A DNA stretch of 31,230 nucleotides from a virus (Duplodnaviria; Heunggongvirae; Uroviricota; Caudoviricetes), in IMG/VR virus record IMGVR_UViG_2526164634_000010, positions 1-31,230 of that record. One strand, written 5' to 3'. A program made the translations under genes and the position numbers. This document shows positions 20 to 20,602 of this stretch, in pieces. The first letter of the stretch is position 1; each line of letters begins with the position of its first letter. The notes beneath the pieces were generated by a model. The model did not search any database. It had not been told where the DNA came from and saw only the letters and a program-made list of their open reading frames with translations.

Positions 20-110
20 TTACTTTTAACTTTAATTTTGTGCAGCATGCACCCTCAACAACAGCGATTATGGATCAGTGTACTTATCTTTTACAAGCAA
101 CTTGCAATCT
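20..110 (-). ncRNA. ohsC: candidate OhsC antisense sRNA (antitoxin RNA for ShoB); ends approximate
   Basis: The 19-nt block gtgcagcatgcaccctcaa at 40-58 is an exact direct repeat of 288-306 in the shoB leader, so a minus-strand transcript over 40-58 is perfectly complementary to the shoB mRNA; divergent position upstream of shoB fits the known locus. Transcript ends cannot be set by eye. Confidence 0.35.
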
Positions 111-381
111 TTAGCATAAAAACTCGAGCCTTTACGAAGAAAGCAATATTGATGGAAAGATTAACGTGACCGCCAATTCGTAAGTACATTAAAATTGGCT
201 TCGTTATTGAAGATTTTGCTGTGCTTTACACCATGCCACAGAATTCCCCCATTGAAACGAGTGGTGTCGTCAAAGCTCTGGTGTGGAGTGCAGCATGCAC
301 CCTCAATAACTCGCACGTTCAGTTTTGGGGAGATGTAAGGGCTAATCTGAACGGCTGCATTCCTTGTTTAAGGAAAAACGA

Positions 382-462
382 ATGACTGATTGCCGATACC
401 TGATTAAACGGGTCATCAAAATCATCATTGCTGTTTTACAGCTGATCCTTCTGTTCTTATAA
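382..462 (+). CDS. shoB: ShoB small hydrophobic type I toxin peptide (26 aa)
   Basis: ATG at 382, translation MTDCRYLIKRVIKIIIAVLQLILLFL then TAA; recognised as ShoB; too short for the ORF track; convergent with yfhL as in E. coli. Confidence 0.8.
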   Translation: MTDCRYLIKRVIKIIIAVLQLILLFL

Positions 463-482
463 CACAAGGAAACGTACTTAAG

Positions 483-516
483 GTGCGTCCGGTGAACCAA
501 TCGGACGCGCCTTTAA
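483..516 (+). terminator. candidate intrinsic terminator after shoB
   Basis: Stem gcgtccg (485-491) pairs with cggacgc (502-508), followed by a short T-run (ccttt). Confidence 0.35.
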
Positions 517-655
517 TAACTATAAATAAGTGTCTTGGCAGATACTATATAAATTAACTTAGTGAATGATTATGCTAATGTCATCAATTAAATAAATATA
601 ATGGCGTTAAGGCTTCCCAGTAATATAATTAATACTCTACTTCCAGAGTAGAATA

Positions 656-925
<270 letters not shown>

Positions 926-1124
926 TTACCGTTAAATCATTTTAAAATCAGTAAGTTGTATCGAGTTTGTATGCTTTACTGTCATTAACTTACTGTATGT
1001 TGATCCAGTGTATTTAACCTTGATAAACTCAGTCCAGCAACACTAAACCGCAACACATTGCATTTTGTCCCGTAGAAAAGACTTGTATGTGTGAGCTTGT
1101 TTTCTGCGCCTACGCAGATAAGGA

Positions 1125-2528
1125 TTGAGAATGCCGCGCACTGTAACACATAATCCGGATAGCCCCAATAATGACGATGTTTTAGCCGCTTCTGAAAAAT
1201 GGGACGCCTGTAAACCCCCCTATACTAGCGCACACATGAAAATCTGTGTTGCTGCCGCCAAAATCATCCTCGCTGCTTCCGGCGTGGCTCGCCGTTCCAA
1301 ATACGAAAAAGAGAACTATCTCCGTATCGATTTCAGCAAAGCCGGTAAGGTTACATTTTACGCCGAGTTTCCAAAAAAGATGGGCCTCAAAGGTAAAAAG
1401 CTCGGCGAGTGGCCGGAGCTCGCTATCCAGCTGGCGCGCGAAAAAGCGCTAGGTATGGCTGACGGTGGCCTGCGGGCAGAGTCCGTACATGCAGCGCTGG
1501 AAATGTACCGGGATGACCTCAAAGCCAAAGTCGCCCGGCAGAAGCTGAGCCCGGACAGTTTCACAACCTACGGGGTGCGTATCGACCGGATTAAAGCAAC
1601 GTTCGGCGAGCGCGAGGTGTTCAGCGACGTAACATACAATCGGCTGGTGGAAGTGCTGGACGAGTGGATCGCTACTCGCTCGAACAATAACGCCCTGGAG
1701 TTGTTTGCCGAGCTCCGTCGGTTCTGGAAGTTCTGCGCACCTACTCTTTGCAACGGCCGCAATGTTGCCGCCAGTCTGCCAGATGATTATGTTTCCTCCC
1801 GCGTACAGAAACCTACCCCCACACGGCTTTTTACCGATATTGAATCAATCGCCCGACTCTGGCTCAATGTTGCTGCCTGCACCTCTGTACACCAGAAGAA
1901 TGCTGTTCGCTTCATGATCATCACTGGTGTTCGTCCGATTAATGTCCATAACCTGCGCTGGGACTACGTTCACGAGGAGGCTGGTGAAATTGTTTATCCG
2001 GAAGGGGTTATCGGCATGCGAGGGGCTATGAAAACACAAAAGGCTTTCCGCCTGCCGATAACCCCTGAGATCCGGCGGATTATCGACGAGCAGAAAGCCT
2101 GGCGTGATTCAGTTCCTGAGTGCAACAGGGATTATGTATTTTTGCAGCCACGTGATCCAATGCAGCCATTTTCAAAACGATCACTGGATAAGCTGGTGAA
2201 AACATACAGCCCGGACGGGGCTGTAAAAGGAATAAAACATGATGGGACTGTTAAAGGGAAAGACGGTGCATTTAATACGATGTGCCGTAAATTCCTTAAG
2301 AGCAATGTTATTGCCTTGATGAAGGAAAGAGGCTATTCCCGCTCAGACCGAAGGGAAATCAGCCTCCTTTGCCTTCACCACTCCAGCAAGTCAGATGACC
2401 CGATGGCAGAACATTACGACTTTTCTGATGAGATTTTACAGGAAGAGATTGCGTTGAAGCGCGAAGCTTTCGAGGCTCACGAGCGGAGCATACTTGCGCA
2501 GGTGGCATTGCTACGGCGGCGAGGTTAA
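1125..2528 (+). CDS. phage tyrosine-type site-specific recombinase/integrase (divergent family)
   Basis: 467-aa ORF with AAGGA RBS 7 nt upstream; box I-like segment ITGVRPINVHNLRWDYV; box II-like C-terminus MCRKF...LLCLHHSSKSDDPMAEHY with Arg and terminal Tyr retained but the usual His residues substituted; first gene next to the host junction. Confidence 0.65.
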   Translation: MRMPRTVTHNPDSPNNDDVLAASEKWDACKPPYTSAHMKICVAAAKIILAASGVARRSKYEKENYLRIDFSKAGKVTFYAEFPKKMGLKGKKLGEWPELAIQLAREKALGMADGGLRAESVHAALEMYRDDLKAKVARQKLSPDSFTTYGVRIDRIKATFGEREVFSDVTYNRLVEVLDEWIATRSNNNALELFAELRRFWKFCAPTLCNGRNVAASLPDDYVSSRVQKPTPTRLFTDIESIARLWLNVAACTSVHQKNAVRFMIITGVRPINVHNLRWDYVHEEAGEIVYPEGVIGMRGAMKTQKAFRLPITPEIRRIIDEQKAWRDSVPECNRDYVFLQPRDPMQPFSKRSLDKLVKTYSPDGAVKGIKHDGTVKGKDGAFNTMCRKFLKSNVIALMKERGYSRSDRREISLLCLHHSSKSDDPMAEHYDFSDEILQEEIALKREAFEAHERSILAQVALLRRRG

Positions 2529-2725
2529 TACTGGCTGCGACATTTTTGAATAAAAGCGTCGATATTTCGGCGCTCATAACGAACTACTTTTGCACTGAAA
2601 CGAATTGGTGCCAGGATAGCCCGATGACGATGCTTAATATTCCACTCACATAGCGTTTTCTGTGTAATACCTAACTTTTGGCATACTTCATCCGGGGTGA
2701 GTAAATCGTCGGGTTTCTCGCTCAT
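2525..2725 (-). CDS. AlpA/Xis-like small HTH DNA-binding protein (excisionase or regulator)
   Basis: 66-aa ORF; motif LLTPDEVCQKLGITQKTLCEW resembles AlpA/excisionase-type HTH; start overlaps helicase stop, suggesting translational coupling; adjacent to integrase. Confidence 0.6.
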   Translation of the reverse strand: MSEKPDDLLTPDEVCQKLGITQKTLCEWNIKHRHRAILAPIRFSAKVVRYERRNIDAFIQKCRSQY

Positions 2726-4116
2726 GCTATACCTCTCTTTTTCATGGCATCGAGCAGGATGTCCTGCACTGTTCGTTTTGAGTTGCGCCGCTCCATCACC
2801 ATTTCATCCATAGTGTCGGCAGCAATAATGTGGTGAATAAATACCGGACGATTGTGTCCGGCCTGTATCTGCCTGGTGGGGCCGATACGTTCAATAATTT
2901 GCTGATATTGCTCCAGGTCCCACCAGTGTGAGAAAAATACCAGTATATTTCCGCCGTCCTGCATGTTCAGGCCGTGGCCCGCGCTGGCTGGGTGTGCAAA
3001 GAGAACAGGAATCTTTCCGGAATTCCAGTCGCGCAGTGTCTGTGGATCCTGGTCGAGGTGACGACCGCGAGGGAATGCTTTAAGCAAGCGTTCAAGATCG
3101 TGTTTCCAGTGATAAGCAACCAGCACAGGTGCGCCAGCTGCTTCGGTCAGTATGCTGTCCAGCGCCTGTAGTTTGGTGTCATGCAGTTCTGACCAACTTC
3201 CGGTGTCATCTGTGTATACTGCGCCGCTGGCGATTTGCAGACACTTCAGTGTCTTTGCCGCGGCGTTCGGTGCTTCGATGCCTTCGCCATTCAGCTCGAG
3301 GAACATTTCCTTTTCCATTTCACGATACTGCTGACGGGCCTTCGGTGGCATATCCACGCGGATTACGTTATGGATGGGGTCTTTGATATCGAACCAGTCG
3401 GCCGCATCCAGCGAGAGGGTTACATCGGCTAACGCTCGCTGTATTTCACCCTGTGAGTGAGCAAAAGGCTCCAGTTTGGTCCAGCTCTGCCCCGGAAACT
3501 GTATCGAGTTGAACCAGCGTGAGGTAAACGCGCCGTAAGTGCGCCCGAGACGTTGCCCCTGGTCCACAAACCACGATTGTCCCCACAAATCTACCAGGCC
3601 GTTCGGTGCTGGCGTACCGGTGAGATTTATCCAGCGCCGGACATACTTATGCGCCACTTTGCCCAGCGCCGCCGCGCGCTTACCACCACCGCGCAGCCGG
3701 AAGGATTTTAGCCGGGTGCTTTCATCTGGAATGACAGTACCGAACGGCCATCGTTCTCCCAATTCTTCAATCAGCCAGACAAGGTTATCGTAGTTGATGG
3801 TGAACACGCTTGCGTTGCTGTTCGTCAGCGCCATAGAGCGCGCTTTGGCATTACCAATAATTGGCTGCACCTCGATATTGCGCAAATGTCCCCACTTCAG
3901 TGCTTCATCCGGCCATGTGCTGGCAGCCACGCGCAGCGGCGCGAGGACCAGTGCGGGGCATGTTTCTGCCCCTGCCATAAAGAGATCTTCCAGCGCAGTG
4001 AGCGTTGCCACGGTTTTACCCATTCCCATACCCGCCCAGATGTTGCCGCGCAGAATGTTAGTTTGGTGATTGATTATGAGGTTTTGATAAACTCTGGGGT
4101 GGAATATGCTATTCAT
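2722..4116 (-). CDS. SNF2-family DNA helicase / ATPase (phage replication)
   Basis: 464 aa; Walker A AGMGMGKT; DExx-type motif II VIPDESTRL; AGGTG RBS upstream of ATG at 4116. Confidence 0.85.
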   Translation of the reverse strand: MNSIFHPRVYQNLIINHQTNILRGNIWAGMGMGKTVATLTALEDLFMAGAETCPALVLAPLRVAASTWPDEALKWGHLRNIEVQPIIGNAKARSMALTNSNASVFTINYDNLVWLIEELGERWPFGTVIPDESTRLKSFRLRGGGKRAAALGKVAHKYVRRWINLTGTPAPNGLVDLWGQSWFVDQGQRLGRTYGAFTSRWFNSIQFPGQSWTKLEPFAHSQGEIQRALADVTLSLDAADWFDIKDPIHNVIRVDMPPKARQQYREMEKEMFLELNGEGIEAPNAAAKTLKCLQIASGAVYTDDTGSWSELHDTKLQALDSILTEAAGAPVLVAYHWKHDLERLLKAFPRGRHLDQDPQTLRDWNSGKIPVLFAHPASAGHGLNMQDGGNILVFFSHWWDLEQYQQIIERIGPTRQIQAGHNRPVFIHHIIAADTMDEMVMERRNSKRTVQDILLDAMKKRGIA

Positions 4117-4127
4117 TAATACACCTA

Positions 4128-4136
4128 TGGTAGAAT
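4128..4136 (+). promoter_or_regulatory. candidate extended -10 promoter (TGgTAGAAT) for the low-GC gene at 4180
   Basis: tggtagaat at 4128-4136 matches the extended -10 form TGnTATAAT at 5 of 6 hexamer positions; strong RBS ACGGAGG 7 nt before the ATG at 4180. Confidence 0.3.
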
Positions 4137-4179
4137 ATGGTCACTTCTCTCTCTATATATATAACTAACGGAGGCGGGT

Positions 4180-4977
4180 ATGCCCCTGGCGAAAATATTT
4201 ACAAAGCAAGTTTCTTTATTAACTATGTTTTCAGCGTTAGCTTATGCGATGGCATATTCTTTTCAGAAAGGTGTTGCATCGTATTATGGCTATCCAGACC
4301 TTTTTATTAAAATAGACTTAAATACGCTATTGTATTCGGCTGTGTGGCTTTTGTTTTTTAGTTTTTTATTTCTCGGCGCCTTATATGCGGCGTTGATGTT
4401 TGATTTGAAAGGGAAATATTATGTTCCATTTATTGTATTTATAGTTGTTATGCTAATGGCTAATATTTGTATAATAGGATTTCATTGGCCTTTTGGTTAT
4501 TTCTCCGAAACTTCTGTGATGAGTGTTCAGGATATTTTATTATTTGCTATGCTTTTGTTGAATTATCACAATGTGGTGTCCATGCCAATCCATAGTAAGA
4601 GACACGAACATCATATGGAGAGCATTAGAAAATTTGGGAGGCTTGCAGAGTATAAGAACGTATTTTATTATATCGATTTAAAAATCCTAAAGTCAGCTTT
4701 TCCTTTAGGGGTGATAACGTTGTTGATATTGAGCTATACATTCGGGAAGGTTACTGCATTTAAAAATAACGAATATTATATGGTAGATGGTAGTAATACT
4801 AAAGTGTTGCTCAATTCATTTGGTAGTGGTTTTGTTGTTGGTGATTGTGAGTCAAATAGCGCAAAATTTGAATTTGTTAATGATTTAAAAGGGATGAGAT
4901 TCACAATCATGTCCTCTAAAAAGGAAATAGCTAAATTAAAAGGGTGTTTCGAAATACGTGTTAAAAATACGGATTAA
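4180..4977 (+). CDS. low-GC moron: hypothetical multi-pass membrane protein with soluble C-terminal domain
   Basis: 265-aa ORF, markedly AT-rich versus flanks; several hydrophobic segments in the N-terminal half; no family recognised; opposite strand to the surrounding operon; own RBS. Confidence 0.6.
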   Translation: MPLAKIFTKQVSLLTMFSALAYAMAYSFQKGVASYYGYPDLFIKIDLNTLLYSAVWLLFFSFLFLGALYAALMFDLKGKYYVPFIVFIVVMLMANICIIGFHWPFGYFSETSVMSVQDILLFAMLLLNYHNVVSMPIHSKRHEHHMESIRKFGRLAEYKNVFYYIDLKILKSAFPLGVITLLILSYTFGKVTAFKNNEYYMVDGSNTKVLLNSFGSGFVVGDCESNSAKFEFVNDLKGMRFTIMSSKKEIAKLKGCFEIRVKNTD

Positions 4978-4989
4978 AGCATAAGTCTT

Positions 4990-5277
4990 TTATCCTTTAT
5001 TGCGGCTTAAAATAATGGCCTCCAGATTTTTGCTATCCAGCACCACTACGGTAAAGCCCAGCGCGCGCAACCGTCCGTGTTCGCGCAACTGGTCAGGCCG
5101 TGGTGGCTTGCCGGGGGATTTACATTCAACGAAAATGATACGACCGCCGGGTAGCAGAACAATGCGATCTGGTACCGAGCGGCGACCGGGGGATACGAAC
5201 TTAAAGGCAACCCCGCCAGCCTTTTTTACTTCAGCGACGAGGTGCTTTTCGATTAGGTTTTCACGTTCATAGGCCAT
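4990..5277 (-). CDS. VRR-NUC domain nuclease
   Basis: 95 aa; pattern FKFVSPGRRSVPDRIVLLPGGRIIFVECKSPGKPPRPDQLREH fits the VRR-NUC (PD-(D/E)xK-like) signature; start overlaps the upstream small gene. Confidence 0.75.
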   Translation of the reverse strand: MAYERENLIEKHLVAEVKKAGGVAFKFVSPGRRSVPDRIVLLPGGRIIFVECKSPGKPPRPDQLREHGRLRALGFTVVVLDSKNLEAIILSRNKG

Positions 5278-5471
5278 TAGCTTTCGCCTTCCTGCTTTTT
5301 GCGTTTCTTCATGCAGATAGCGCAGTTCTCAGGATGGTCATGCCATTCATCAATCCTGATACCTATGAACATCCATTTTCCGCATAGTGATATGGCTTCC
5401 CCCGAATTAAAGAAATGTGCTTTTTTTGACAGAGCGGGGAACCCCCAACCCTTATTATCGATATTAGACAT
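5277..5471 (-). CDS. small Cys/His-rich (probable Zn-binding) phage protein
   Basis: 64 aa; strong RBS AAGGAGGTG before ATG at 5471; residues C29, H45, H47, C51, C54; translationally coupled to VRR-NUC. Confidence 0.5.
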   Translation of the reverse strand: MSNIDNKGWGFPALSKKAHFFNSGEAISLCGKWMFIGIRIDEWHDHPENCAICMKKRKKQEGES

Positions 5472-5598
5472 CGTCCACCTCCTTACGCTTTTCGCGCATG
5501 TTCTGCATCAGACAAAAATCAAACCGACGTTCGCTTTGGCCCAGACCTGCATCGCCCGGTCGTACCCGCCGGACTGTTCAAGGTGCAAAGCCTCCCGC

Positions 5599-5623
5599 AC
5601 AGTCCGGTAATAAAGCGGACTGT
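5599..5623. promoter_or_regulatory. perfect 8-bp inverted repeat acagtccg-N9-cggactgt (candidate operator or RNA hairpin)
   Basis: Palindrome read from sequence in the 235-bp non-coding gap between the TIR-like gene terminator and the small Zn-protein gene; next to an AT-rich tatttaaat element. Confidence 0.3.
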
Positions 5624-5659
5624 CCCGGTATTTAAATGACATAGGGTTTTTATTCCCAA

Positions 5660-5705: not shown

Positions 5706-6467
5706 TTACGAGGAAGCGTTAGCTATTTGAGCTTGTGTAAATTCGAAACCAGAATTTTGTAACCGTTGCACTAGACGAGGAACTGTTTCACGTACATGGT
5801 CGTTGAAATTCAGATACAAAATCCCGTTAGCATCAGAAGGCTGTTCTAGGTGCTGTTTCTGAAGGATTGCTACATTGCTGCGCCCTAAGGACGAAAGAAG
5901 CATACCCATCTCGAGTACAACGTTCTGTCTTGCGCGGGGTTGGATTTCTGCTTCACCGGCGCGCTTTGAGTATCCCATATCATCAGGTGTCAAAAGAACA
6001 ATCCCGAAACGGGTAGCAGTTTGTCCTTGCCCAATTTCACGTTCAAGCTCTTCAATAATGGTGAGTCCAGTCCCTCCCGTATTCTGCAAAATGAAATGGT
6101 CTGGTAATCCAAGTTTATGAAGGATTAGCTCAAGTTGCTCCTTTGCAGTATGGTCATGGCCGTGAACAATGAATATCTTTTTGGGGAGCTCAGATGGCTG
6201 TTCTACGGCTAGTGGTGTTGCCGTGGGCGGCGTTCCTAAATGGGTCATTATTGCAGTTTCAACATTGGGACGTTCTTGAGGGTTACCTTGAAACTGAATG
6301 GTCCGGGTGGTGTAAAGGTTAACAATTACGCCATTCGTTAAACGATAGCAGTCACAAGTCTCACGCTGTTCGTGGGAAAAATTGGTGAACCCACACTCCC
6401 TCAAAAAGTCAGGAAAAGTTTCTCTCGGGTATGGATAGGTGATCGGCATTTCAGTTAGTTCCTGCAT
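5706..6467 (-). CDS. two-domain protein: unknown N-terminal domain + C-terminal TIR-like/SLOG-like Rossmannoid nucleotide-processing domain
   Basis: 253 aa; C-terminal half has KKIFIVHGHDH (strand-1 motif of TIR-like COG4271-type proteins), GGTGLTIIEELE (LOG/SLOG-like) and RQNVVLEMGMLLSSLGRSNVAIL (xNVxxExG motif); N-terminal ~95 aa unrecognised; AGGAA RBS; cotranscribed downstream of the DNA polymerase gene. Confidence 0.6.
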   Translation of the reverse strand: MQELTEMPITYPYPRETFPDFLRECGFTNFSHEQRETCDCYRLTNGVIVNLYTTRTIQFQGNPQERPNVETAIMTHLGTPPTATPLAVEQPSELPKKIFIVHGHDHTAKEQLELILHKLGLPDHFILQNTGGTGLTIIEELEREIGQGQTATRFGIVLLTPDDMGYSKRAGEAEIQPRARQNVVLEMGMLLSSLGRSNVAILQKQHLEQPSDANGILYLNFNDHVRETVPRLVQRLQNSGFEFTQAQIANASS

Positions 6468-8641: not shown

Positions 8642-9271
8642 ATGCATATGATCCAATACTTGATTGACCATACAGAGCATCTGGAGAAAATAGCTGGATA
8701 TATTTTTTCATGTTTGATTGTTATGGGAGTCTGGATAAGAAAGATCATTTTTAATTATAAGTATAAAGAGCCTAAATATGTTAAGAAGTTAATTTTATAT
8801 TTAGTTAAGTATGAACGTTATCTGGATGAGGAGGATAAGAGTGCCATAGAAAAAAGAATAAATGATAAAATTATTCGTGATGCGCTGAAATTGCAATCAT
8901 CTTATAACCGAAGAGATGTTATTTACATTTGCAATAGATTAGAAAAAAGACAGTATATAAATCAGTTGATTAAGCTTCAGAATTATATAGAGAAAGATAA
9001 CGGAGTGTTTTTTATTAATGTTGATTTTTCAGGTTTTTTATTTATTATTAGTCGTCTGTTTTCCTTTCTGTGTTTTGTGCTGTTTACCCTTTTTTCTATT
9101 ATCTGCATTATTTCCATAGGGCAAAATGAAGGCCTTTTAAATTATCTTGTGTATATGGTTATGATAATAGTTTTAGAGACTGTTGGTTTTTGGATGTATG
9201 ATACTTTCCCGTCTAAGAAAAAGATCTGTGAACTAAATAAAGAATTGAGAAAGATTAAGATTCCTGAGTGA
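8642..9271 (+). CDS. low-GC moron: hypothetical membrane protein
   Basis: 209-aa ORF, very AT-rich; hydrophobic N-terminal segment and two C-terminal hydrophobic segments around a Lys/Glu-rich region; opposite strand to flanking replication genes; no family recognised; start uncertain (ATG 8642 or 8648). Confidence 0.5.
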   Translation: MHMIQYLIDHTEHLEKIAGYIFSCLIVMGVWIRKIIFNYKYKEPKYVKKLILYLVKYERYLDEEDKSAIEKRINDKIIRDALKLQSSYNRRDVIYICNRLEKRQYINQLIKLQNYIEKDNGVFFINVDFSGFLFIISRLFSFLCFVLFTLFSIICIISIGQNEGLLNYLVYMVMIIVLETVGFWMYDTFPSKKKICELNKELRKIKIPE

Positions 9272-12873: not shown

Positions 12874-13497
12874 CTAACGTTTACGGCGGTAAATACGGTG
12901 TTCGATCATTACACCTATGATCTGTAAGTTCATATCTGCACTACGAAAAATAGGGTAATCAGGATTTAGGGGGATTAATTCAAAGTCGTCGATGCCGATT
13001 CCTAATGGACGGTATTTTTTAAATGTAGCTTCGTGACCGTCGTTTTTGGCGACAACAAACTCCCCTGGTGCAGGACATAGATCAGGATCGATGATAACAA
13101 TGTCTCCTTCTTTAAACTCTGGTTGCATGCTGTCGCCATCAATACGTAATGCGAAGCATGTTTCTGGAATGTCAGAGTCTGCCAAAATATATTCAAATTC
13201 CCCTGTCAGATCTGTTATGTCTCTTGCTTCTGTAAGCTCTCCTGCCTGAACGTAACTTAATATAGGTATGCGTCTGGTACTTATCTCCGCGAGAGGCATA
13301 ATATTTTTACCGTTCAGTAGCCAGTCTGGGCTACATTTCAAGGCCTTAGCCAGATCCAGAAGATTGCGTGGCTTTCTGGTTCGTCCACTTTCGATGGATT
13401 CTATGGATTGTTGGCTAACCCCTGCAGAATTCGCTACTTCCACTTGAGTCATTCCTAATTCCAAACGACGTGCTTTAAAACGGGCTGCGAGAGACAT
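12874..13497 (-). CDS. CI-like repressor (N-terminal HTH + C-terminal S24 LexA-like peptidase domain)
   Basis: HTH MTQVEVANSAGVSQQSIESIESG; S24-type C-terminal region (FALRIDGDSMQPEFKEGDIVIIDP); start set at ATG 13497 with AAGGA RBS rather than the longer track ORF. Confidence 0.85.
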   Translation of the reverse strand: MSLAARFKARRLELGMTQVEVANSAGVSQQSIESIESGRTRKPRNLLDLAKALKCSPDWLLNGKNIMPLAEISTRRIPILSYVQAGELTEARDITDLTGEFEYILADSDIPETCFALRIDGDSMQPEFKEGDIVIIDPDLCPAPGEFVVAKNDGHEATFKKYRPLGIGIDDFELIPLNPDYPIFRSADMNLQIIGVMIEHRIYRRKR

Positions 13498-13617
13498 GGG
13501 ATTAGTCCTTCTGGGTTGTATTAATGTGTATACCCACATTAAAAACAATTTTTGTTGTATTTGACAAACCTCATTTGTTGTTGCTAAATACCACTAAAAT
13601 TGTATGAGGTGAAAGCA
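13498..13617. promoter_or_regulatory. divergent immunity promoter/operator region
   Basis: TTGACA at 13561-13566, 17-bp spacer, -10-like ctaaat; repeated GTTGTATT/TTGTTG motifs; lies between divergent repressor and cro-like genes. Confidence 0.5.
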
Positions 13618-16307: not shown

Positions 16308-16730
16308 ATGCGTAATATTCAACAGGTTTTAGAGCGCTGGGGTGGCTGGGCAGCGAGTGAAGGTGGTAGCGTCTACTTTCCTCCTGTTGCAGCCGGGTTT
16401 AAGAATCTGCTACCCGCGACGCAGTCTGGAAGGCTGAAATGCAGTGACAATGACGGTCTTATCATCAACTCCGCTATGAGCTGCCTGAAGAAAAAAGATC
16501 CGTATCTGTGCACGCTCCTTGAGTGGCATTACGTCCAGGCCATGCCCGTGCGGGCGATGGGTGAGAAGCTCGGCGTATCTCACACCCACGTTCTGAAGAG
16601 GCTTCAGGCGGCAGAGGGATTTATTGACGGTTGCTTAGCCATGCTGGATGTGGTGCTCGAAATGGATCAGTCGGTTCAGTCAAAGCCTCAGGCTATCAGG
16701 ACTTTGCGTAGGAGCTGCTCGGCGGCATAA
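16308..16730 (+). CDS. Q-type late antiterminator (phage 82/QuuD-like)
   Basis: 140 aa; N-terminus MRNIQQVLERWGGWAA, AAGFK and RLQAAEGFIDG segments resemble remembered Q82-family sequences; located upstream of the lysis cassette. Confidence 0.7.
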   Translation: MRNIQQVLERWGGWAASEGGSVYFPPVAAGFKNLLPATQSGRLKCSDNDGLIINSAMSCLKKKDPYLCTLLEWHYVQAMPVRAMGEKLGVSHTHVLKRLQAAEGFIDGCLAMLDVVLEMDQSVQSKPQAIRTLRRSCSAA

Positions 16731-17457: not shown

Positions 17458-19029
17458 TTACTGAGAGGTCAGATCAACTTTCCAGGGCAACAGATCGCGT
17501 ACCCGGTTTGCCGGCCAATCCTGGATATGCTCAATGACGTAACGCAGCCATTTTTCTGGTTCCACATTGTTCAGACGGCATGTGCCGATCAGCGAGTACA
17601 ACACCGCCGCATGTTCGCCACCGCTGTCGGAACCCGCGAACAGCCAGTTTTTCCGGCCTACGGCCACTCCCCGTAAGGCGTTCTCTGCGATGTTGTTGTC
17701 GATTTCCACCCAGCCATTACTGCAGTACACGTTCAGGCCATCCCACTGTTTCAGCAGGTATGCGAACGCTTTTGCCGTATCCGAGTGACGCGACAGTGTT
17801 TTCATCTGAGTCTGTATCCAGTCATACAGTGACTGCATCAGTGGCGCAGCTCTGGCTTTTCTTGCCGCCAGACGCTGTTCTGCTGTACATCCCCGGACTT
17901 CTGCCTCTATGGCATACAGTTCACCGATACGCTGCAGGGCTTCCGTGGTGATGTCGGTGGGCACTCTTGCATGCACATCGTGGATTTTTCTCCGGGCATG
18001 AGCCATACACGCGGCTTCCGTTATTCTGCCGGATTCGTATAACACCCGGTAACCACCGTAAGCATCGGCCTGAAGCACACCGCTGTAACCGGCCAGATGA
18101 TTTTGTGGATGGATACCTTTCCGGTCCGGTGAGTACGCGAACCAGACCGCCGGGGGCATTTCCGAACCGGCGTTACGGTCATCACGGACGTAGACCCACA
18201 GCCGGGCGGTCCGGGTTTTACCGCTGCCCGGCTCCTGGACCGGGACGGGGATATCATCAGCATGGACTTTACCGGGCATCAGCACATACTGGCGCAGGAC
18301 GTCATACAGCGGCTCCAGCAGTTCAGCAACGGCACCTGTCCAGCGCCCCAGCGTGGCGCGGCTCAGCTCCACGCCCTGGCGACGGTATATTTCTGACTGG
18401 CGGTATAACGGCAGATGGTCTGCATATTTCCCGGTAACAACATGGGCCAGAAGCCCCGCTCCGGCATAACTGCGTGCAATGGGTTTTGAAGGTACTGTTG
18501 CCTGCACGATATGGTCGCACCGACAACAGGCCAGTTTCGGACGTTGTGTTTCGATAACCTTAAAGGCGCTGCTGATAAGCTCCAGTTGCTCTGACACATC
18601 ACACCCCAGAGGACTGAGGTCACCACCACAGGCCGGGCAGCATTCCTCTTCCGGCCGGATGACCCGGGTTTCACGGGGAAGTGAGGCCGGTAACGGTTTA
18701 CGGGCTGAAGACTGGCGCAGGGCGGATGGCAGTACCGGGTCATATTGCTCACCCAGCGTTTCCGCCATTTCTTCCTGAAGTGCGCTGATTCGCTCCTGTG
18801 CTTCCTGTATCTGCCGTTCGGTTTTAGCGCGAAGTTTTTCTGAGCTTTTACCGAACTGCATGCGCTGCAGTTTCGCAACCAGCGCCTTCAGCCGGTTGAT
18901 TTCGGAAGCATAAGCCGCCACCCGCTGTGAGAGCAGGCGGTTGTATTTCGCCATCTGGCGGATGGTGTCCTGTTGCGTCTGCAACAGTGCCCGCAGGCGG
19001 GCATTCTCATGAGCAAGTGAGGTGTCCAT
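17458..19029 (-). CDS. IS66-family transposase TnpC (orf3)
   Basis: 523 aa; N-terminal coiled-coil, Cys motif CPACGG...CCRCDH and catalytic core typical of IS66 TnpC. Confidence 0.8.
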
Positions 19030-19048
19030 ATCCTCACTTTACAACGGG

Positions 19049-19396
19049 TTATATGCGGATGCCAGCGCGTTCCGTTCGTTTCGGGTGCTTCCAGTCGATG
19101 CCTTCGAGAAGCATGGACAACTGAGCCGGAGTAAGGTGAACCTTTCCATCGCGGGTGACCGGCCAGACGAAGCGGCCCCGCTCCAGGCGTTTGGTGAAGA
19201 GGCACAGTCCGTCACTGTCAGCCCACAGCACTTTTATCTGGTCACCCCGGCGTCCGCGGAAGATGAACAGATGCCCGGAGAACGGGTCATCCTTCAGGAC
19301 GTTCTGAACTTTTGAGGCCAGGCCGTTAAAACCATTTCGCATATCGGTGATACCGGCAACCAGCCAGATACGCGAACCGGCAGGGAGAGATATCAT
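19049..19396 (-). CDS. IS66-family TnpB (orf2)
   Basis: 115 aa; MISLPAGSRIWLVAGITDMRNGFNGL matches the remembered IS66 Orf2 family. Confidence 0.8.
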   Translation of the reverse strand: MISLPAGSRIWLVAGITDMRNGFNGLASKVQNVLKDDPFSGHLFIFRGRRGDQIKVLWADSDGLCLFTKRLERGRFVWPVTRDGKVHLTPAQLSMLLEGIDWKHPKRTERAGIRI

Positions 19397-20046
19397 CAGT
19401 GGCTGCTCCCTTTCATTTCGCGGATAAGTGTCTGTAATAACGCCGGTGTCAGTTCACCTTTCAGCCTGAGAGTTCCGGCCGGCAGAACCAGCTCGCAGCA
19501 CAGACTGTCTGGCAGTGTATTTATCTGTTCAGGTATCTGCACTGGTGCCGGGATTTTATTATCCGGCTCCGGAGTTAACGTCACGGGAAGTAGCGATGTT
19601 TCATGTTCGCCGGGCGGTTGCAGGCCACCGTTACGCCAGAGATGCCGCCAGTTAAAGAGCAGGTTATCGTTAATTCCATTCTCTCGAGCTATTTGTGCGA
19701 CACAGGCACCGGGTAAAAGAGTTTGCTGAACCAGTCTCCATTTAAACTCCGGTGAAAATCGGTTCCGGCGGGGTTTCTCTGCTTTCACAGGCTGAGTCAC
19801 GGTCGGGGCTGAAGGGTATCGCCCCGGGAAAAGAGCCCGGGCCAGTTGCCCGCAGGAATATTCACCGGAAAGAGGCCAGTCAGTGAATACCTGGTGAAAT
19901 CGCCTCACCAGAGAAAAAATGGCGGTTTTGCTGACACCAGTCTGCGCAGAAATGCGCGGGTACGACAGTGACTCGTCAAATCTCAGCTGTAGCACACGCA
20001 GGATCAATTCTGGATTATCTGCCAGTACCGCTTTTCGTGCATTCAT
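19396..20046 (-). CDS. IS66-family TnpA (orf1), HTH protein
   Basis: 216 aa; first ORF of the IS66 operon; overlaps orf2 start. Confidence 0.7.
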   Translation of the reverse strand: MNARKAVLADNPELILRVLQLRFDESLSYPRISAQTGVSKTAIFSLVRRFHQVFTDWPLSGEYSCGQLARALFPGRYPSAPTVTQPVKAEKPRRNRFSPEFKWRLVQQTLLPGACVAQIARENGINDNLLFNWRHLWRNGGLQPPGEHETSLLPVTLTPEPDNKIPAPVQIPEQINTLPDSLCCELVLPAGTLRLKGELTPALLQTLIREMKGSSH

Positions 20047-20140: not shown

Positions 20141-20260
20141 GCTATGGCGAACTTTTTTTGTATTCAGGGCCCACCGAAGGACGGCTCATAACCCAATCCT
20201 ACGGGCGTATACGCAGGGCCCGCCTTTCAACAACACCCCGTAATGGCGGAGGTGGGAAGT

Positions 20261-20602
20261 ATGAAAATGCACAATGCTCCTCATTCCTGGCCTGACTTAC
20301 TGGAACTCTTACAAAGTTGGTGGCGTGGAGATACGCCGTTGGGCGCAGTGGTTATGTCAATTGTTATGGCTGGCTTGCGCATTGCCTATTTTGGCGGTGG
20401 CGGCGGCTGGAAACGAAAAACGCTTGAGATTTTGCTCTGTGGTGCTCTGACGCTGACCTTTGCATCCGCTCTTGAGTATGTTGGATGGCCTAAATCTCTT
20501 TCTGTTGCCATTGGTGGTGGTGTTGGGCTGATCGGTGTCGATGCTATTCGTGGGGCTGCAATGCGAGTAATCGGTAACAAGTTTGGTGGCTCTAAGGAGT
20601 AA
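20261..20602 (+). CDS. class I holin with dual-start motif (lambda S-like organisation)
   Basis: GGAGGTG RBS then ATG-AAA-ATG (MKM) at 20261/20267; hydrophobic segments; an upstream in-frame ATG at 20243 is less likely; directly precedes the endolysin. Confidence 0.75.
   Translation: MKMHNAPHSWPDLLELLQSWWRGDTPLGAVVMSIVMAGLRIAYFGGGGGWKRKTLEILLCGALTLTFASALEYVGWPKSLSVAIGGGVGLIGVDAIRGAAMRVIGNKFGGSKE

What the first reader, a model, noticed from the sequence alone, without database searches (positions are those of the whole stretch)
4120..4985. Low-GC moron with its own promoter, encoding a membrane protein antisense to the early operon (candidate exclusion or abortive-infection gene)
An ~860-bp block of much lower GC than its flanks is inserted exactly between the VRR-NUC and helicase genes but on the opposite strand. 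It has an extended -10 element, a strong RBS and a 265-aa product with several N-terminal transmembrane segments and a soluble C-terminal domain of no family I recognise. Compositionally foreign, autonomously expressed membrane genes in prophages are classic superinfection-exclusion or Abi candidates. Its antisense placement also means leftward early transcription must traverse it, creating potential transcriptional interference.
Basis: partly seen in the sequence, partly recalled or inferred. Interest (0 to 1): 0.6.

Follow-up and report, generated by a model that had tools for sequence, protein, structure and literature searches.

The report
Prophage membrane gene in defence hotspot
A foreign-looking, low-GC gene in an E. 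coli prophage encodes an uncharacterised five-helix inner-membrane protein, and because it sits in a swappable slot that holds the known anti-phage gene BstA in sister prophages, it is a good but unproven candidate for blocking infection by other phages.

Summary
Window 4180..4977 (+) is an intact 265-aa ORF at 32.7% GC between a 54% GC SNF2 helicase and a 52.8% GC VRR-NUC gene, both on the minus strand. It has an extended -10 (TGGTAGAAT, 4128-4136) and a GGAGG RBS.

Close homologues carry precomputed hits to Pfam PF27470 ('TfpB'), a catalogued family with no established function.

The protein has five TM helices, predicted N-in/C-out, and a roughly 70-aa beta-rich periplasmic domain with a co-conserved Cys pair. 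No solved or viral fold resembles it, and PADLOC, PHROGs and NCBIfam give no significant match.

The context is informative. The helicase|VRR-NUC slot is a cargo hotspot. In sister E. coli prophages it holds BstA (a validated abortive-infection defence gene), a TIR-like protein, DUF6338, or a second TfpB-like allele only 24% identical. A third allele fills the slot in Yersinia. Other family members are low-GC genes, antisense where neighbour strands were read, at other positions in lambdoid prophages, and one survives intact in a decayed remnant. No pilin gene lies nearby.

Best reading: a lysogen-expressed envelope-level phage-exclusion protein (about 0.4), with broader defence more likely than not. 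No function was tested. It is a worthwhile but ordinary candidate.

The parts
4090..5011 (.). Variable cargo cassette, bounded by the homology breakpoints with sister prophages that carry other cargo. It includes the first roughly 9 codons of the helicase and the last roughly 7 codons of VRR-NUC.
   Evidence: blastn breakpoints lie at 4080-4090 and 5011-5030 against L002, L021, L022, L023 and L024. The flanking protein termini co-vary with the cargo. GC is about 0.33. No flanking repeats suggest site-specific insertion.
4128..4136 (+). Extended -10 promoter-like element, TGgTAGAAT.
   Evidence: Read directly from the sequence. It is conserved in orthologue L003. Analogous TGnTAnnnT elements lie upstream of the Yersinia and E. 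hormaechei alleles. Function was not tested.
4171..4175 (+). Shine-Dalgarno sequence GGAGG, 4 nt upstream of the ATG.
   Evidence: Read directly from the sequence.
4180..4977 (+). CDS of a 265-aa TfpB-like (PF27470) inner-membrane protein. Helices are at residues 13-36, 47-73, 81-98, 116-152 and 167-195. Predicted topology is N-in/C-out.
   Evidence: ORF. AF2 model with pLDDT 84 and pTM 0.80. K+R density alternates 0.16/0.03/0.18/0.08/0.20 across the N-terminus and loops 1-4 in 40 homologues. dN/dS is 0.28 against the orthologue in L003. Homologues carry PF27470.
4243..4323 (+). The most conserved motif of the family, residues 22-48: YxxAYxFQxGxAxxYGYPxxFIxIDLN. It covers the end of TM1, a predicted periplasmic-face loop, and the start of TM2.
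   Evidence: Alignment A1 has Y22 invariant and G31 and P39 at 90% or more. A degenerate DNA pattern built from this motif retrieved 24 true family members out of 25 hits, from many phyla.
4765..4974 (+). C-terminal domain of about 70 aa (residues 196-265): a five-strand beta region followed by a helix, with Cys223 and Cys256. It is predicted to be periplasmic.
2722..4116 (-). SNF2-family helicase, the left flank. It lies downstream of the cassette in the leftward operon.
   Evidence: Pfam SNF2-rel_dom E 7.6e-11 and RefSeq annotation.
4990..5277 (-). VRR-NUC / PD-(D/E)XK nuclease, the right flank. Its stop codon is 12 nt from the stop of the cargo gene, and the two genes converge.
   Evidence: Pfam VRR_NUC E 0.0055 and RefSeq annotation.

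Best explanation
The gene is an accessory 'moron' carried in a recombinationally exchangeable cargo slot of an E. coli temperate myovirus-type prophage, integrated next to yfhL. It is probably transcribed from its own extended -10 promoter, against the direction of the repressed leftward early operon, and would therefore be made in the lysogen.

The product is a five-helix inner-membrane protein with its N-terminus in the cytoplasm. A strongly conserved loop motif and a small Cys-pair-containing beta domain face the periplasm.

The most likely function is protection of the lysogen from other phages at the envelope. This would be superinfection exclusion that interferes with the passage of incoming phage DNA or ejection proteins across the inner membrane, in the manner of P22 SieA, T4 Imm or HK97 gp15.

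Shown here: the composition, the ORF, purifying selection, the architecture, family membership (indirect), hotspot behaviour, and co-occupancy of the slot with BstA. Inferred: expression in the lysogen, the topology, the disulfide bond, and the whole functional claim.
For: 1. Hotspot logic. The helicase|VRR-NUC slot of this prophage family carries alternative cargo.
   - BstA on the same (+) strand, PADLOC PDLC02356 E 1.4e-115, in 11 of 5,426 complete E. coli genomes. BstA is an experimentally validated prophage abortive-infection defence (PMC8585504).
   - A TIR-like 305-aa protein, PADLOC TIR effector E 1.1e-6.
   - DUF6338 plus an 86-aa ORF, a 108-aa ORF, and a second TfpB-like allele.
   - The adjacent slot holds the PDC-S35 TIR candidate defence gene, E 6.8e-109.
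2. Allelic diversification within one slot. The window type (17 genomes), type 2 (22 genomes, 24% identity) and a Yersinia allele (about 25% identity) all occupy the same position. P22 sieA shows the same pattern, with three types less than 30% identical (PMC10883804).
3. Independent recurrence as a low-GC (31-35%) single gene in prophages.
   - On the strand opposite its phage neighbours in lambdoid prophages: xis|early-left in E. kobei and P|dinI in E. hormaechei.
   - In the same slot in Raoultella.
   - Beside umuDC-like genes, with tail-fibre genes nearby, in IMG/VR contigs.
4. It is retained intact in a decayed prophage remnant that has lost the helicase and polymerase.
5. Purifying selection, dN/dS 0.28. 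The 90% cluster has 154 sequence variants, in E. coli and Salmonella.
6. It is a stand-alone gene. No partner gene is conserved across 30 loci.
7. The architecture places the conserved surfaces on the periplasmic side, where incoming phage components are met.
Against: - No functional test exists here or in the literature searched. Every database name is 'hypothetical protein'.
- There is no significant hit to any PADLOC, PHROGs or NCBIfam model, including known Sie and Abi families. The best is phrog_35408, E 0.029, of unknown function.
- No homologue was found in 50,697 sequenced phage genomes by tblastn.
- The family, with the same conserved motif, occurs in very distant phyla: Acidobacteriota, Chloroflexota, candidate phyla radiation (CPR) lineages, Bacteroidota and Verrucomicrobiota. 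In the two loci where neighbours were read it is an orphan gene in a non-phage neighbourhood. That breadth is unusual for the narrow, phage-specific Sie proteins known so far and hints at a more general membrane role.
- Other cargo in the slot (DUF6338, the 108-aa ORF) is also of unknown function, so the hotspot is not proven to be purely defensive.
- Type-2 alleles are frameshifted in some strains, so the gene is dispensable.
Confidence: 0.4

Rival explanations
1. Abortive-infection or other post-entry defence. The membrane protein senses infection and kills or arrests the cell, for example by depolarising the membrane, as RexB-type or other membrane Abi effectors do.
For: The same hotspot argument applies: BstA, an Abi protein, occupies the identical slot and orientation, and TIR proteins lie nearby. 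A multi-helix membrane bundle could form a pore.
Against: It is a single gene with no conserved partner or sensor. It has almost no cytoplasmic mass: the largest cytoplasmic loop is about 30 aa. The conserved elements face the periplasm. There are no PADLOC hits.
Confidence: 0.2
2. Lysogenic-conversion factor unrelated to phage defence. It would be a pilin, pseudopilin or other envelope-machinery accessory protein, as the Pfam name TfpB (type-four-pilus region protein) suggests, or a modifier of envelope physiology that benefits the host.
For: Homologues carry Pfam PF27470 'TfpB'. The family is broadly distributed outside prophages and keeps one conserved extracytoplasmic motif, which suits a conserved cellular partner. 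TfpY-like pilin accessory proteins are also small polytopic inner-membrane proteins with periplasmic C-terminal domains (PMC11841053).
Against: No pilin or type IV pilus gene is adjacent in any locus whose called genes were inspected. The architecture differs from TfpY-like proteins, which have 3 TM helices and a two-sheet periplasmic domain according to PMC11841053, against 5 TM helices and one small beta domain here. In Enterobacterales the gene travels with prophages, not with pilus loci.
Confidence: 0.15
3. Immunity or protection protein against a membrane-targeting toxin such as a bacteriocin, colicin or contact-dependent effector, or an addiction-type membrane toxin that stabilises the prophage.
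For: Small polytopic inner-membrane proteins encoded as orphans on mobile elements are typical of bacteriocin immunity (general knowledge). In one distant locus the gene lies upstream of an Rce1/CPBP-like gene, a family often linked to bacteriocin immunity.
Against: No toxin gene is linked in the enterobacterial prophage loci. No partner is conserved across loci. The Rce1 neighbour occurs in a single lineage.
Confidence: 0.1
4. Functionally neutral passenger whose main consequence is regulatory. Convergent transcription across the operon junction would dampen leaky leftward transcription into the helicase, xis-like and int genes in the lysogen.
For: The geometry is real. No terminator separates the convergent genes. 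Several unrelated cargos sit in the same antisense orientation.
Against: The protein is under purifying selection, dN/dS 0.28. Its sequence motifs are conserved across phyla. It is retained intact where the flanking operon has decayed. At least one cargo in the slot (the TIR-like gene, L002) lies in the operon orientation, so antisense placement is not obligatory.
Confidence: 0.05

Closest known systems
Pfam PF27470 'TfpB' family (function unestablished). From my memory only, not verified here, the name comes from the tfpB ORF in the Moraxella pilin-inversion region.
   Same: Close homologues of the window protein (57-85% identical) and distant ones carry precomputed PF27470 hits. They share the length (230-300 aa), the N-terminal motif and the five-helix plus small C-terminal domain layout.
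   Different: The window protein belongs to an enterobacterial, prophage-borne, low-GC subclade with a conserved Cys pair in the C-terminal domain. The broad clade lacks this pair and instead has a VVLRIYGD...IGPL C-terminus. No pilin context was found.
P22 SieA, an inner-membrane superinfection-exclusion protein (PMC10883804).
   Same: Both are prophage-encoded polytopic inner-membrane proteins encoded by a single gene. Both exist as several allelic types less than 30% identical at one locus. SieA is the proposed mechanistic analogue, blocking the DNA-delivery conduit at the inner membrane.
   Different: No sequence similarity is detectable, since PHROGs gives no significant hit. SieA is 162-164 aa with 3-4 TM helices and no C-terminal beta domain. 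The SieA phenotype is demonstrated, whereas nothing is demonstrated for this protein.
BstA, a prophage abortive-infection defence protein (PMC8585504; PADLOC PDLC02356).
   Same: BstA occupies exactly the same slot, on the same strand, in sister prophages in 11 complete E. coli genomes. It is also a single-gene, lysogen-expressed prophage accessory gene.
   Different: BstA is a protein with HTH/KilA-N-like and BstA C-terminal domains that localises to sites of phage DNA replication (PMC8585504). It is unrelated in sequence and architecture. The window protein gives no PADLOC hit.
TfpY/TfpZ/TfpX/FimB-like type IV pilin accessory proteins (PMC11841053).
   Same: Both are small inner-membrane proteins with a cytoplasmic N-terminus, N-terminal TM helices and a periplasmic C-terminal globular domain. 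In both, sequence conservation is concentrated in the membrane part.
   Different: TfpY-like proteins have three TM helices and a two-sheet periplasmic domain. [quoted passage not shown] The window protein has five helices and one small beta domain, with no pilin gene nearby. Sequence homology between the two families was not tested.
Classical phage 'morons': an extra gene with its own promoter and different base composition, lying between genes that are adjacent in relatives.
   Same: It has foreign composition (GC 0.33 against 0.54), its own promoter-like element, the opposite orientation, and presence/absence polymorphism among related prophages.
   Different: No terminator of its own was found. 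The exchanged segment includes the termini of both flanking genes. No sister prophage with an empty slot was seen among those inspected.

Membership tests
Pfam PF27470 (TfpB) | Significant match to the PF27470 profile HMM. | tested here: inconclusive
   The local Pfam copy lacks PF27470, so the window protein returned only noise (TMEM100, E 0.26). The indirect evidence is positive. Precomputed PF27470 hits exist on P0005 (63% identity, unmarked, E <= 1e-5), on P0002 (85%) and P0007 (57%) (marked 'weak'), on P0009 and on P0042. A profile built from the window protein's homologues scores these same proteins at E 1e-21 to 1e-60.
Pfam PF27470 (TfpB) | Shared architecture and the conserved N-terminal motif across members. 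| tested here: met
   Alignment A1 of 40 sequences has Y22 invariant and G31, P39 and G189 at 90% or more. The motif-based DNA pattern retrieved 24 true members among 25 hits.
TfpY/FimB-like pilin accessory proteins | Encoded immediately downstream of the major type IV pilin gene. | tested here: not met
   No pilin gene or pilus Pfam family appears in any locus whose called genes were listed: the window, L004, L007, L010, L013, L017, L019, L020, L068 and L071.
TfpY/FimB-like pilin accessory proteins | Three N-terminal TM helices plus a periplasmic domain made of a mixed three-strand sheet and an antiparallel three-strand sheet (PMC11841053). | tested here: not met
   The AF2 model has five long helices, then a single five-strand beta region and a C-terminal helix.
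TfpY/FimB-like pilin accessory proteins | Detectable sequence homology to TfpY, TfpZ or FimB. | not tested
P22 SieA-type superinfection exclusion | Sequence homology to SieA types A-C. | tested here: not met
   The PHROGs scan gave only phrog_35408 (unknown function) at E 0.029. tblastn against 50,697 phage records, P22-like phages presumably among them, gave no match.
P22 SieA-type superinfection exclusion | Inner-membrane protein expressed from the prophage that blocks DNA injection. | not testable with these tools
   Membrane localisation is predicted. Expression and an injection block require experiments.
BstA | Match to the BstA profile (PADLOC PDLC02356). | tested here: not met
   The window protein gave no PADLOC hit at E <= 1. 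The alternative cargo in L024 matches at E 1.4e-115.
Any catalogued defence system (PADLOC-DB v2.0.0) | Match to any of the 5,027 models. | tested here: not met
   0 families at E <= 1.
Phage moron | Extra gene with a base composition different from its flanks, variably present between genes that are conserved in related phages. | tested here: met
   GC is 0.327 against 0.54 and 0.53. 17 of 157 E. coli genomes with the flanks have this cargo, and the others have five other cargo types.
Phage moron | Own promoter and own terminator. | tested here: inconclusive
   A conserved extended -10 is present, but the promoter-like count does not exceed shuffles. No terminator-like site follows the stop codon.

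The most novel reading that the evidence does not exclude
PF27470/TfpB-like proteins would be a widespread, so far unrecognised family of single-gene, inner-membrane anti-phage (genome-entry exclusion) proteins. Temperate phages of Enterobacterales would swap them as hypervariable alleles through the same hotspot that carries BstA and TIR defences. The conserved periplasm-facing motif would target a component of phage DNA delivery common enough for the family to be useful from E. coli to CPR bacteria.
Probability: 0.3. Interest if true: 0.65.

Novelty: new member of a known kind. Interest (0 to 1): 0.45.

Why it matters
If the protein excludes phages, it would give a function to a Pfam family that has none. 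That family is present in hundreds of E. coli, Salmonella and Klebsiella prophage sequences and in many phyla. It would also add a new envelope-level defence to the catalogue, where membrane-acting single-gene systems are under-represented because homology-based tools miss them.

It would define a compact defence hotspot (helicase|VRR-NUC) in a common E. coli prophage family. That hotspot could be mined for further cargo such as DUF6338 and the 108-aa ORF. In practice, such prophage genes shape the susceptibility of clinical E. coli to therapeutic phages.

If the protein is not a defence gene, the finding is simply one more uncharacterised prophage moron.

Tried and rejected
- **Profile libraries.** Local Pfam, PADLOC, PHROGs and NCBIfam scans of the protein gave nothing significant.
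- **Profile search of the 5.8-billion-protein index with A1.** It returned only 10 hits because the candidate list was saturated, and it added nothing.
- **The search for related loci with alignments A1 and A2.** I replaced it with a hand-made degenerate DNA pattern, which worked.
- **tblastn against sequenced phages.** No match.
- **Literature.** Searches for PF27470, tfpB plus Moraxella, and WP_001127515 found nothing relevant. 'TfpB' in recent papers is an unrelated Acinetobacter PilB-like ATPase or means 'type IVb pili'. The 1990 Moraxella paper is not held.
- **Conserved partner gene.** I looked across 30 loci and found none, apart from tandem paralogues in one soil lineage.
- **Insertion signatures.** I looked for flanking repeats or att-like sites around the cassette and found none. 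Rfam gave no match in the window.
- **Alternative cargo as disguised relatives.** I considered whether DUF6338 or the 209-aa second moron are remote family members and rejected both (E 0.0013 and 0.068 with tiny bit scores).
Full report
**1. What is there**

The window is an E. coli prophage. The stretch 3600-5500 is 100% identical to E. coli FDAARGOS_1059, where the prophage lies next to yfhL and begins with a tyrosine integrase.

The leftward genes (minus strand) form a replication and recombination operon. In order they are DUF2800, DUF2815/SSB-like, DNA polymerase A, a TIR protein, an ANR-family pseudogene, a 64-aa ORF, VRR-NUC, an SNF2 helicase and an HTH_17 protein. They lie downstream of, and on the same strand as, an HTH_3 plus Peptidase_S24 repressor at 12874..13548. 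This operon is therefore expected to be silent in the lysogen. That expectation is an inference from the lambda-like layout.

Between VRR-NUC (4990..5277, -) and the helicase (2722..4116, -) lies ORF 4180..4977 on the plus strand, 265 aa. Its GC is 0.327, against 0.540 and 0.528 for the flanks and 0.502 for the window. GC3 is 0.32 against 0.59 for the helicase.

Upstream are TGgTAGAAT (4128-4136, an extended -10) and GGAGG (4171-4175). The -10 element survives in a 92.6%-identical orthologous locus in which nearby bases have changed. The generic scanner finds no more promoter-like sites here than in shuffled sequence, so the promoter is plausible but not demonstrated. No terminator follows the gene. 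Its stop codon is 12 nt from the convergent VRR-NUC stop. No Rfam family and no flanking repeats are present.

**2. Corrections to the description**

The block is not inserted exactly between the two genes. Homology with sister prophages that carry other cargo ends at about 4080-4090 and resumes at about 5011-5030. The first roughly 6-20 residues of the helicase and the last roughly 5-10 residues of VRR-NUC co-vary with the cargo. The cassette is therefore exchanged by recombination with breakpoints in the flanking gene termini.

The TM helices also occupy most of the protein, residues about 13-195, and not only its N-terminus.

**3. The protein**

AlphaFold2 with a 40-sequence alignment gives a confident model, pLDDT 84 and pTM 0.80. 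It has helices at 13-36, 47-73, 81-98, 116-152 and 167-195, then five short strands and a helix at 247-264.

Across 40 homologues the K+R density alternates: N-terminus 0.164, loop 1 0.025, loop 2 0.178, loop 3 0.081, loop 4 0.199. By the positive-inside rule this gives N-in and C-out.

Cys223 and Cys256 in the C-terminal domain are present together in 30 sequences, absent together in 9, and single in 1 of 40. This fits a periplasmic disulfide bond, which is an inference.

The best-conserved element is YxxAYxFQxGxAxxYGYPxxFIxIDLN (residues 22-48), at the periplasmic end of TM1.

The gene is under purifying selection. dN/dS is 0.28 against the L003 orthologue, compared with 0.06 for the helicase and 0.18 for VRR-NUC.

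**4. Family**

Local Pfam, PADLOC, PHROGs and NCBIfam scans give nothing significant.

Homologues in the large protein collection that are 57-85% identical carry precomputed hits to PF27470, which the context tool names 'TfpB'. This family is newer than the local Pfam copy, so membership is indirect.

An exhaustive phmmer search over 1.84 billion cluster representatives found only 45 at E <= 1e-3. The family is nevertheless wider than that. A degenerate DNA pattern built from the conserved motif hit 25 places in the GTDB species-representative genomes. Of these, 24 are true members (E 1e-12 to 1e-60). They come from Acidobacteriota, Chloroflexota, Bacteroidota, Verrucomicrobiota, Planctomycetota, Armatimonadota and CPR lineages, among others.

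The broad clade lacks the Cys pair and ends in VVLRIYGD...IGPL.

Every database name is 'hypothetical protein', and I found no paper on the family. No gene is a conserved neighbour across 30 loci, apart from tandem paralogues in one soil lineage. It therefore acts as a stand-alone gene.

**5. Context, the most informative evidence**

(a) The helicase|VRR-NUC slot is a cargo hotspot. Of 5,426 complete E. coli genomes, 157 carry the flanks and 17 carry this gene. The cargo types seen are:

| Cargo | Strand | Evidence | Complete E. coli genomes |
|---|---|---|---|
| TfpB-like, window type, 265 aa | + | | 17 |
| BstA, 310 aa | + | PADLOC E 1.4e-115; one RefSeq record calls it 'BstA C-terminal domain-containing protein' | 11 |
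| TfpB-like type 2, 24% identical to the window protein | + | family profile E 2.4e-36 | 22 |
| TIR-like, 305 aa | - | PADLOC TIR effector E 1.1e-6 | not counted |
| DUF6338 three-TM protein plus an 86-aa ORF | + | | 2 with this variant |
| 108-aa ORF | + | | not counted |

BstA is an experimentally validated prophage abortive-infection defence (PMC8585504).

(b) A Yersinia prophage of the same family has a third allele, about 25% identical, in the same slot and orientation. Raoultella has an 85% allele there, beside the same TIR gene.

(c) The neighbouring slot (VRR-NUC|pol) holds the PADLOC candidate defence gene PDC-S35 in the window, E 6.8e-109. In sister prophages it holds other cargo: an HATPase_c protein, YfbU plus a hypothetical ORF, or DUF4406.

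(d) Other family members are low-GC (31-35%) single genes at different positions in unrelated lambdoid prophages. In the first two below, the gene lies on the strand opposite its phage neighbours.
- Between xis and the early-left genes in Enterobacter kobei.
- Between the P replication gene and dinI in E. hormaechei.
- Beside umuDC-like genes, with tail-fibre genes nearby, in IMG/VR contigs; one matches Klebsiella aerogenes proteins.

(e) In one lineage the gene is intact inside a decayed remnant that has lost the helicase and polymerase. In Serratia it is an orphan after proA.

(f) No pilin gene is nearby in any inspected locus.

**6. Mechanism**

Points (a) to (e) argue that the gene is selected for what it does in the lysogen. 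They also show that it shares an ecological niche with known anti-phage genes.

The protein has almost no cytoplasmic mass. Its conserved surfaces face the periplasm, it needs no partner, and it diversifies into alleles less than 30% identical at one locus. P22 SieA shows the same pattern. [quoted passage not shown]

I therefore favour envelope-level superinfection exclusion, at about 0.4. A membrane Abi effector comes next at about 0.2. Non-defence lysogenic conversion, including a pilus or secretion accessory role suggested by the Pfam name, is about 0.15. Toxin immunity or addiction is about 0.1, and a mainly regulatory or neutral role about 0.05.

The main caveat is the very wide phyletic spread of the family, together with non-phage settings in the two distant loci whose neighbours were read. 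That is atypical for known Sie proteins and suggests a conserved cellular or phage partner. The family is also absent from 50,697 sequenced phage genomes.

TfpY-like pilin accessory proteins are the nearest characterised proteins by overall layout. They differ in architecture (3 TM helices and two sheets), are always next to pilin genes, and gave no phage defence when tested (PMC11841053).

**7. Transcriptional interference**

The geometry is correct. Leftward transcripts must cross the cassette antisense to reach the helicase and the HTH_17 gene. Minus-strand promoter-like and terminator-like sites inside the AT-rich cassette are no more frequent than chance.

BstA, DUF6338 and the other TfpB-like alleles sit in the same orientation, while the TIR-like cargo sits in the operon orientation. 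The phage therefore tolerates both arrangements. Interference remains an untested possibility.

**8. Verdict**

The 'candidate exclusion/Abi' interpretation gains real contextual support: the hotspot is shared with BstA and TIR genes, the gene recurs in prophages, and it is retained in a decayed prophage. It remains unproven.

The gene is a new, uncharacterised member of a familiar kind, a prophage moron in a defence hotspot, and it belongs to a catalogued family of unknown function. It is moderately interesting as a concrete and cheap experimental target, and not surprising in kind.

Noticed in passing
window 5706..6467 (-): A 253-aa TIR-domain protein matches the PADLOC candidate defence family PDC-S35 (E 6.8e-109) and Pfam CAP12-PCTIR_TIR (E 2.9e-31). 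It sits in a second variable slot, VRR-NUC|DNA polymerase. Sister prophages there carry an HATPase_c protein with a weak DrmA-like hit (L003), YfbU plus a hypothetical ORF (L022), or DUF4406 (L023, L024).
   Followed up: partly
window 8642..9271 (+): A second antisense low-GC moron (GC 0.289) lies between the DNA polymerase and the DUF2815/SSB-like gene. Its 209-aa product has 3-4 predicted TM segments and matches phrog_10579 (unknown function, E 2.9e-108). PADLOC gives no hit, and it is not related to the TfpB-like family (E 0.068). The Yersinia prophage has a different 229-aa plus-strand gene in the corresponding slot (L010 10806..11495).
   Followed up: partly
window 17458..20046 (-): An IS66-family element lies between the Q antiterminator (16308..16730) and the holin (20243..20602). 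Its TnpC is 523 aa (DDE_Tnp_IS66, E 1.3e-103), its TnpB 115 aa and its TnpA-like protein 216 aa. The otherwise matching prophage of FDAARGOS_1059 lacks this 2.7-kb insertion there and has an IS66 copy in its tail-fibre region instead. The window therefore comes from a different strain, and late-gene expression may be disrupted.
   Followed up: partly
L066 304..1014, compared with L023 2053..2640 and L067 304..891: The type-2 TfpB-like allele in the same slot has an A8 tract just after the first conserved Cys codon. With A8 it is intact, 236 aa (FDAARGOS_144). With A9 it is truncated to 195 aa (M-17 and 97-3250). This could be decay, homopolymer sequencing error, or slippage-based on/off switching.
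   Followed up: partly
L024 2121..3053 (+), E. coli CAU16175 and 10 other complete genomes: BstA (PADLOC E 1.4e-115) occupies the helicase|VRR-NUC slot of this prophage family. RefSeq annotates it as 'hypothetical protein' in most of these records.
   Followed up: yes
L071 5001..5798 (also L072, L073): A 57%-identical TfpB-like gene is intact inside a decayed prophage remnant. Only an 89-aa ORF at the VRR-NUC position and a truncated 114-aa SSB-like gene remain, among GGDEF and other host genes. This suggests the gene was retained for the benefit of the host.
   Followed up: no
L026, L031, L037, L038 (soil MAGs: ANGP1 and Armatimonadota lineages): The family occurs there as tandem paralogues in a syntenic high-GC locus. 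This was the only recurrent 'neighbour' found among 30 loci.
   Followed up: no
L052 13132..13971 (-): This family member carries a long (EK)n low-complexity insertion (KEKEKEKE..., about 35 aa) in the predicted cytoplasmic loop 4. That loop therefore tolerates large insertions.
   Followed up: no
window 5464..5642 (-): RefSeq marks the ANR-family transcriptional regulator gene at the equivalent position in FDAARGOS_1059 and several sister prophages as frameshifted. It is intact in L023 and L024.
   Followed up: no
window 382..462 (+) and 656..916 (-): By coordinate transfer from the FDAARGOS_1059 annotation, the host genes shoB (a type I toxin) and yfhL lie immediately left of the prophage integrase (1131..2528). 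This marks the attachment-site side of the prophage.
   Followed up: no
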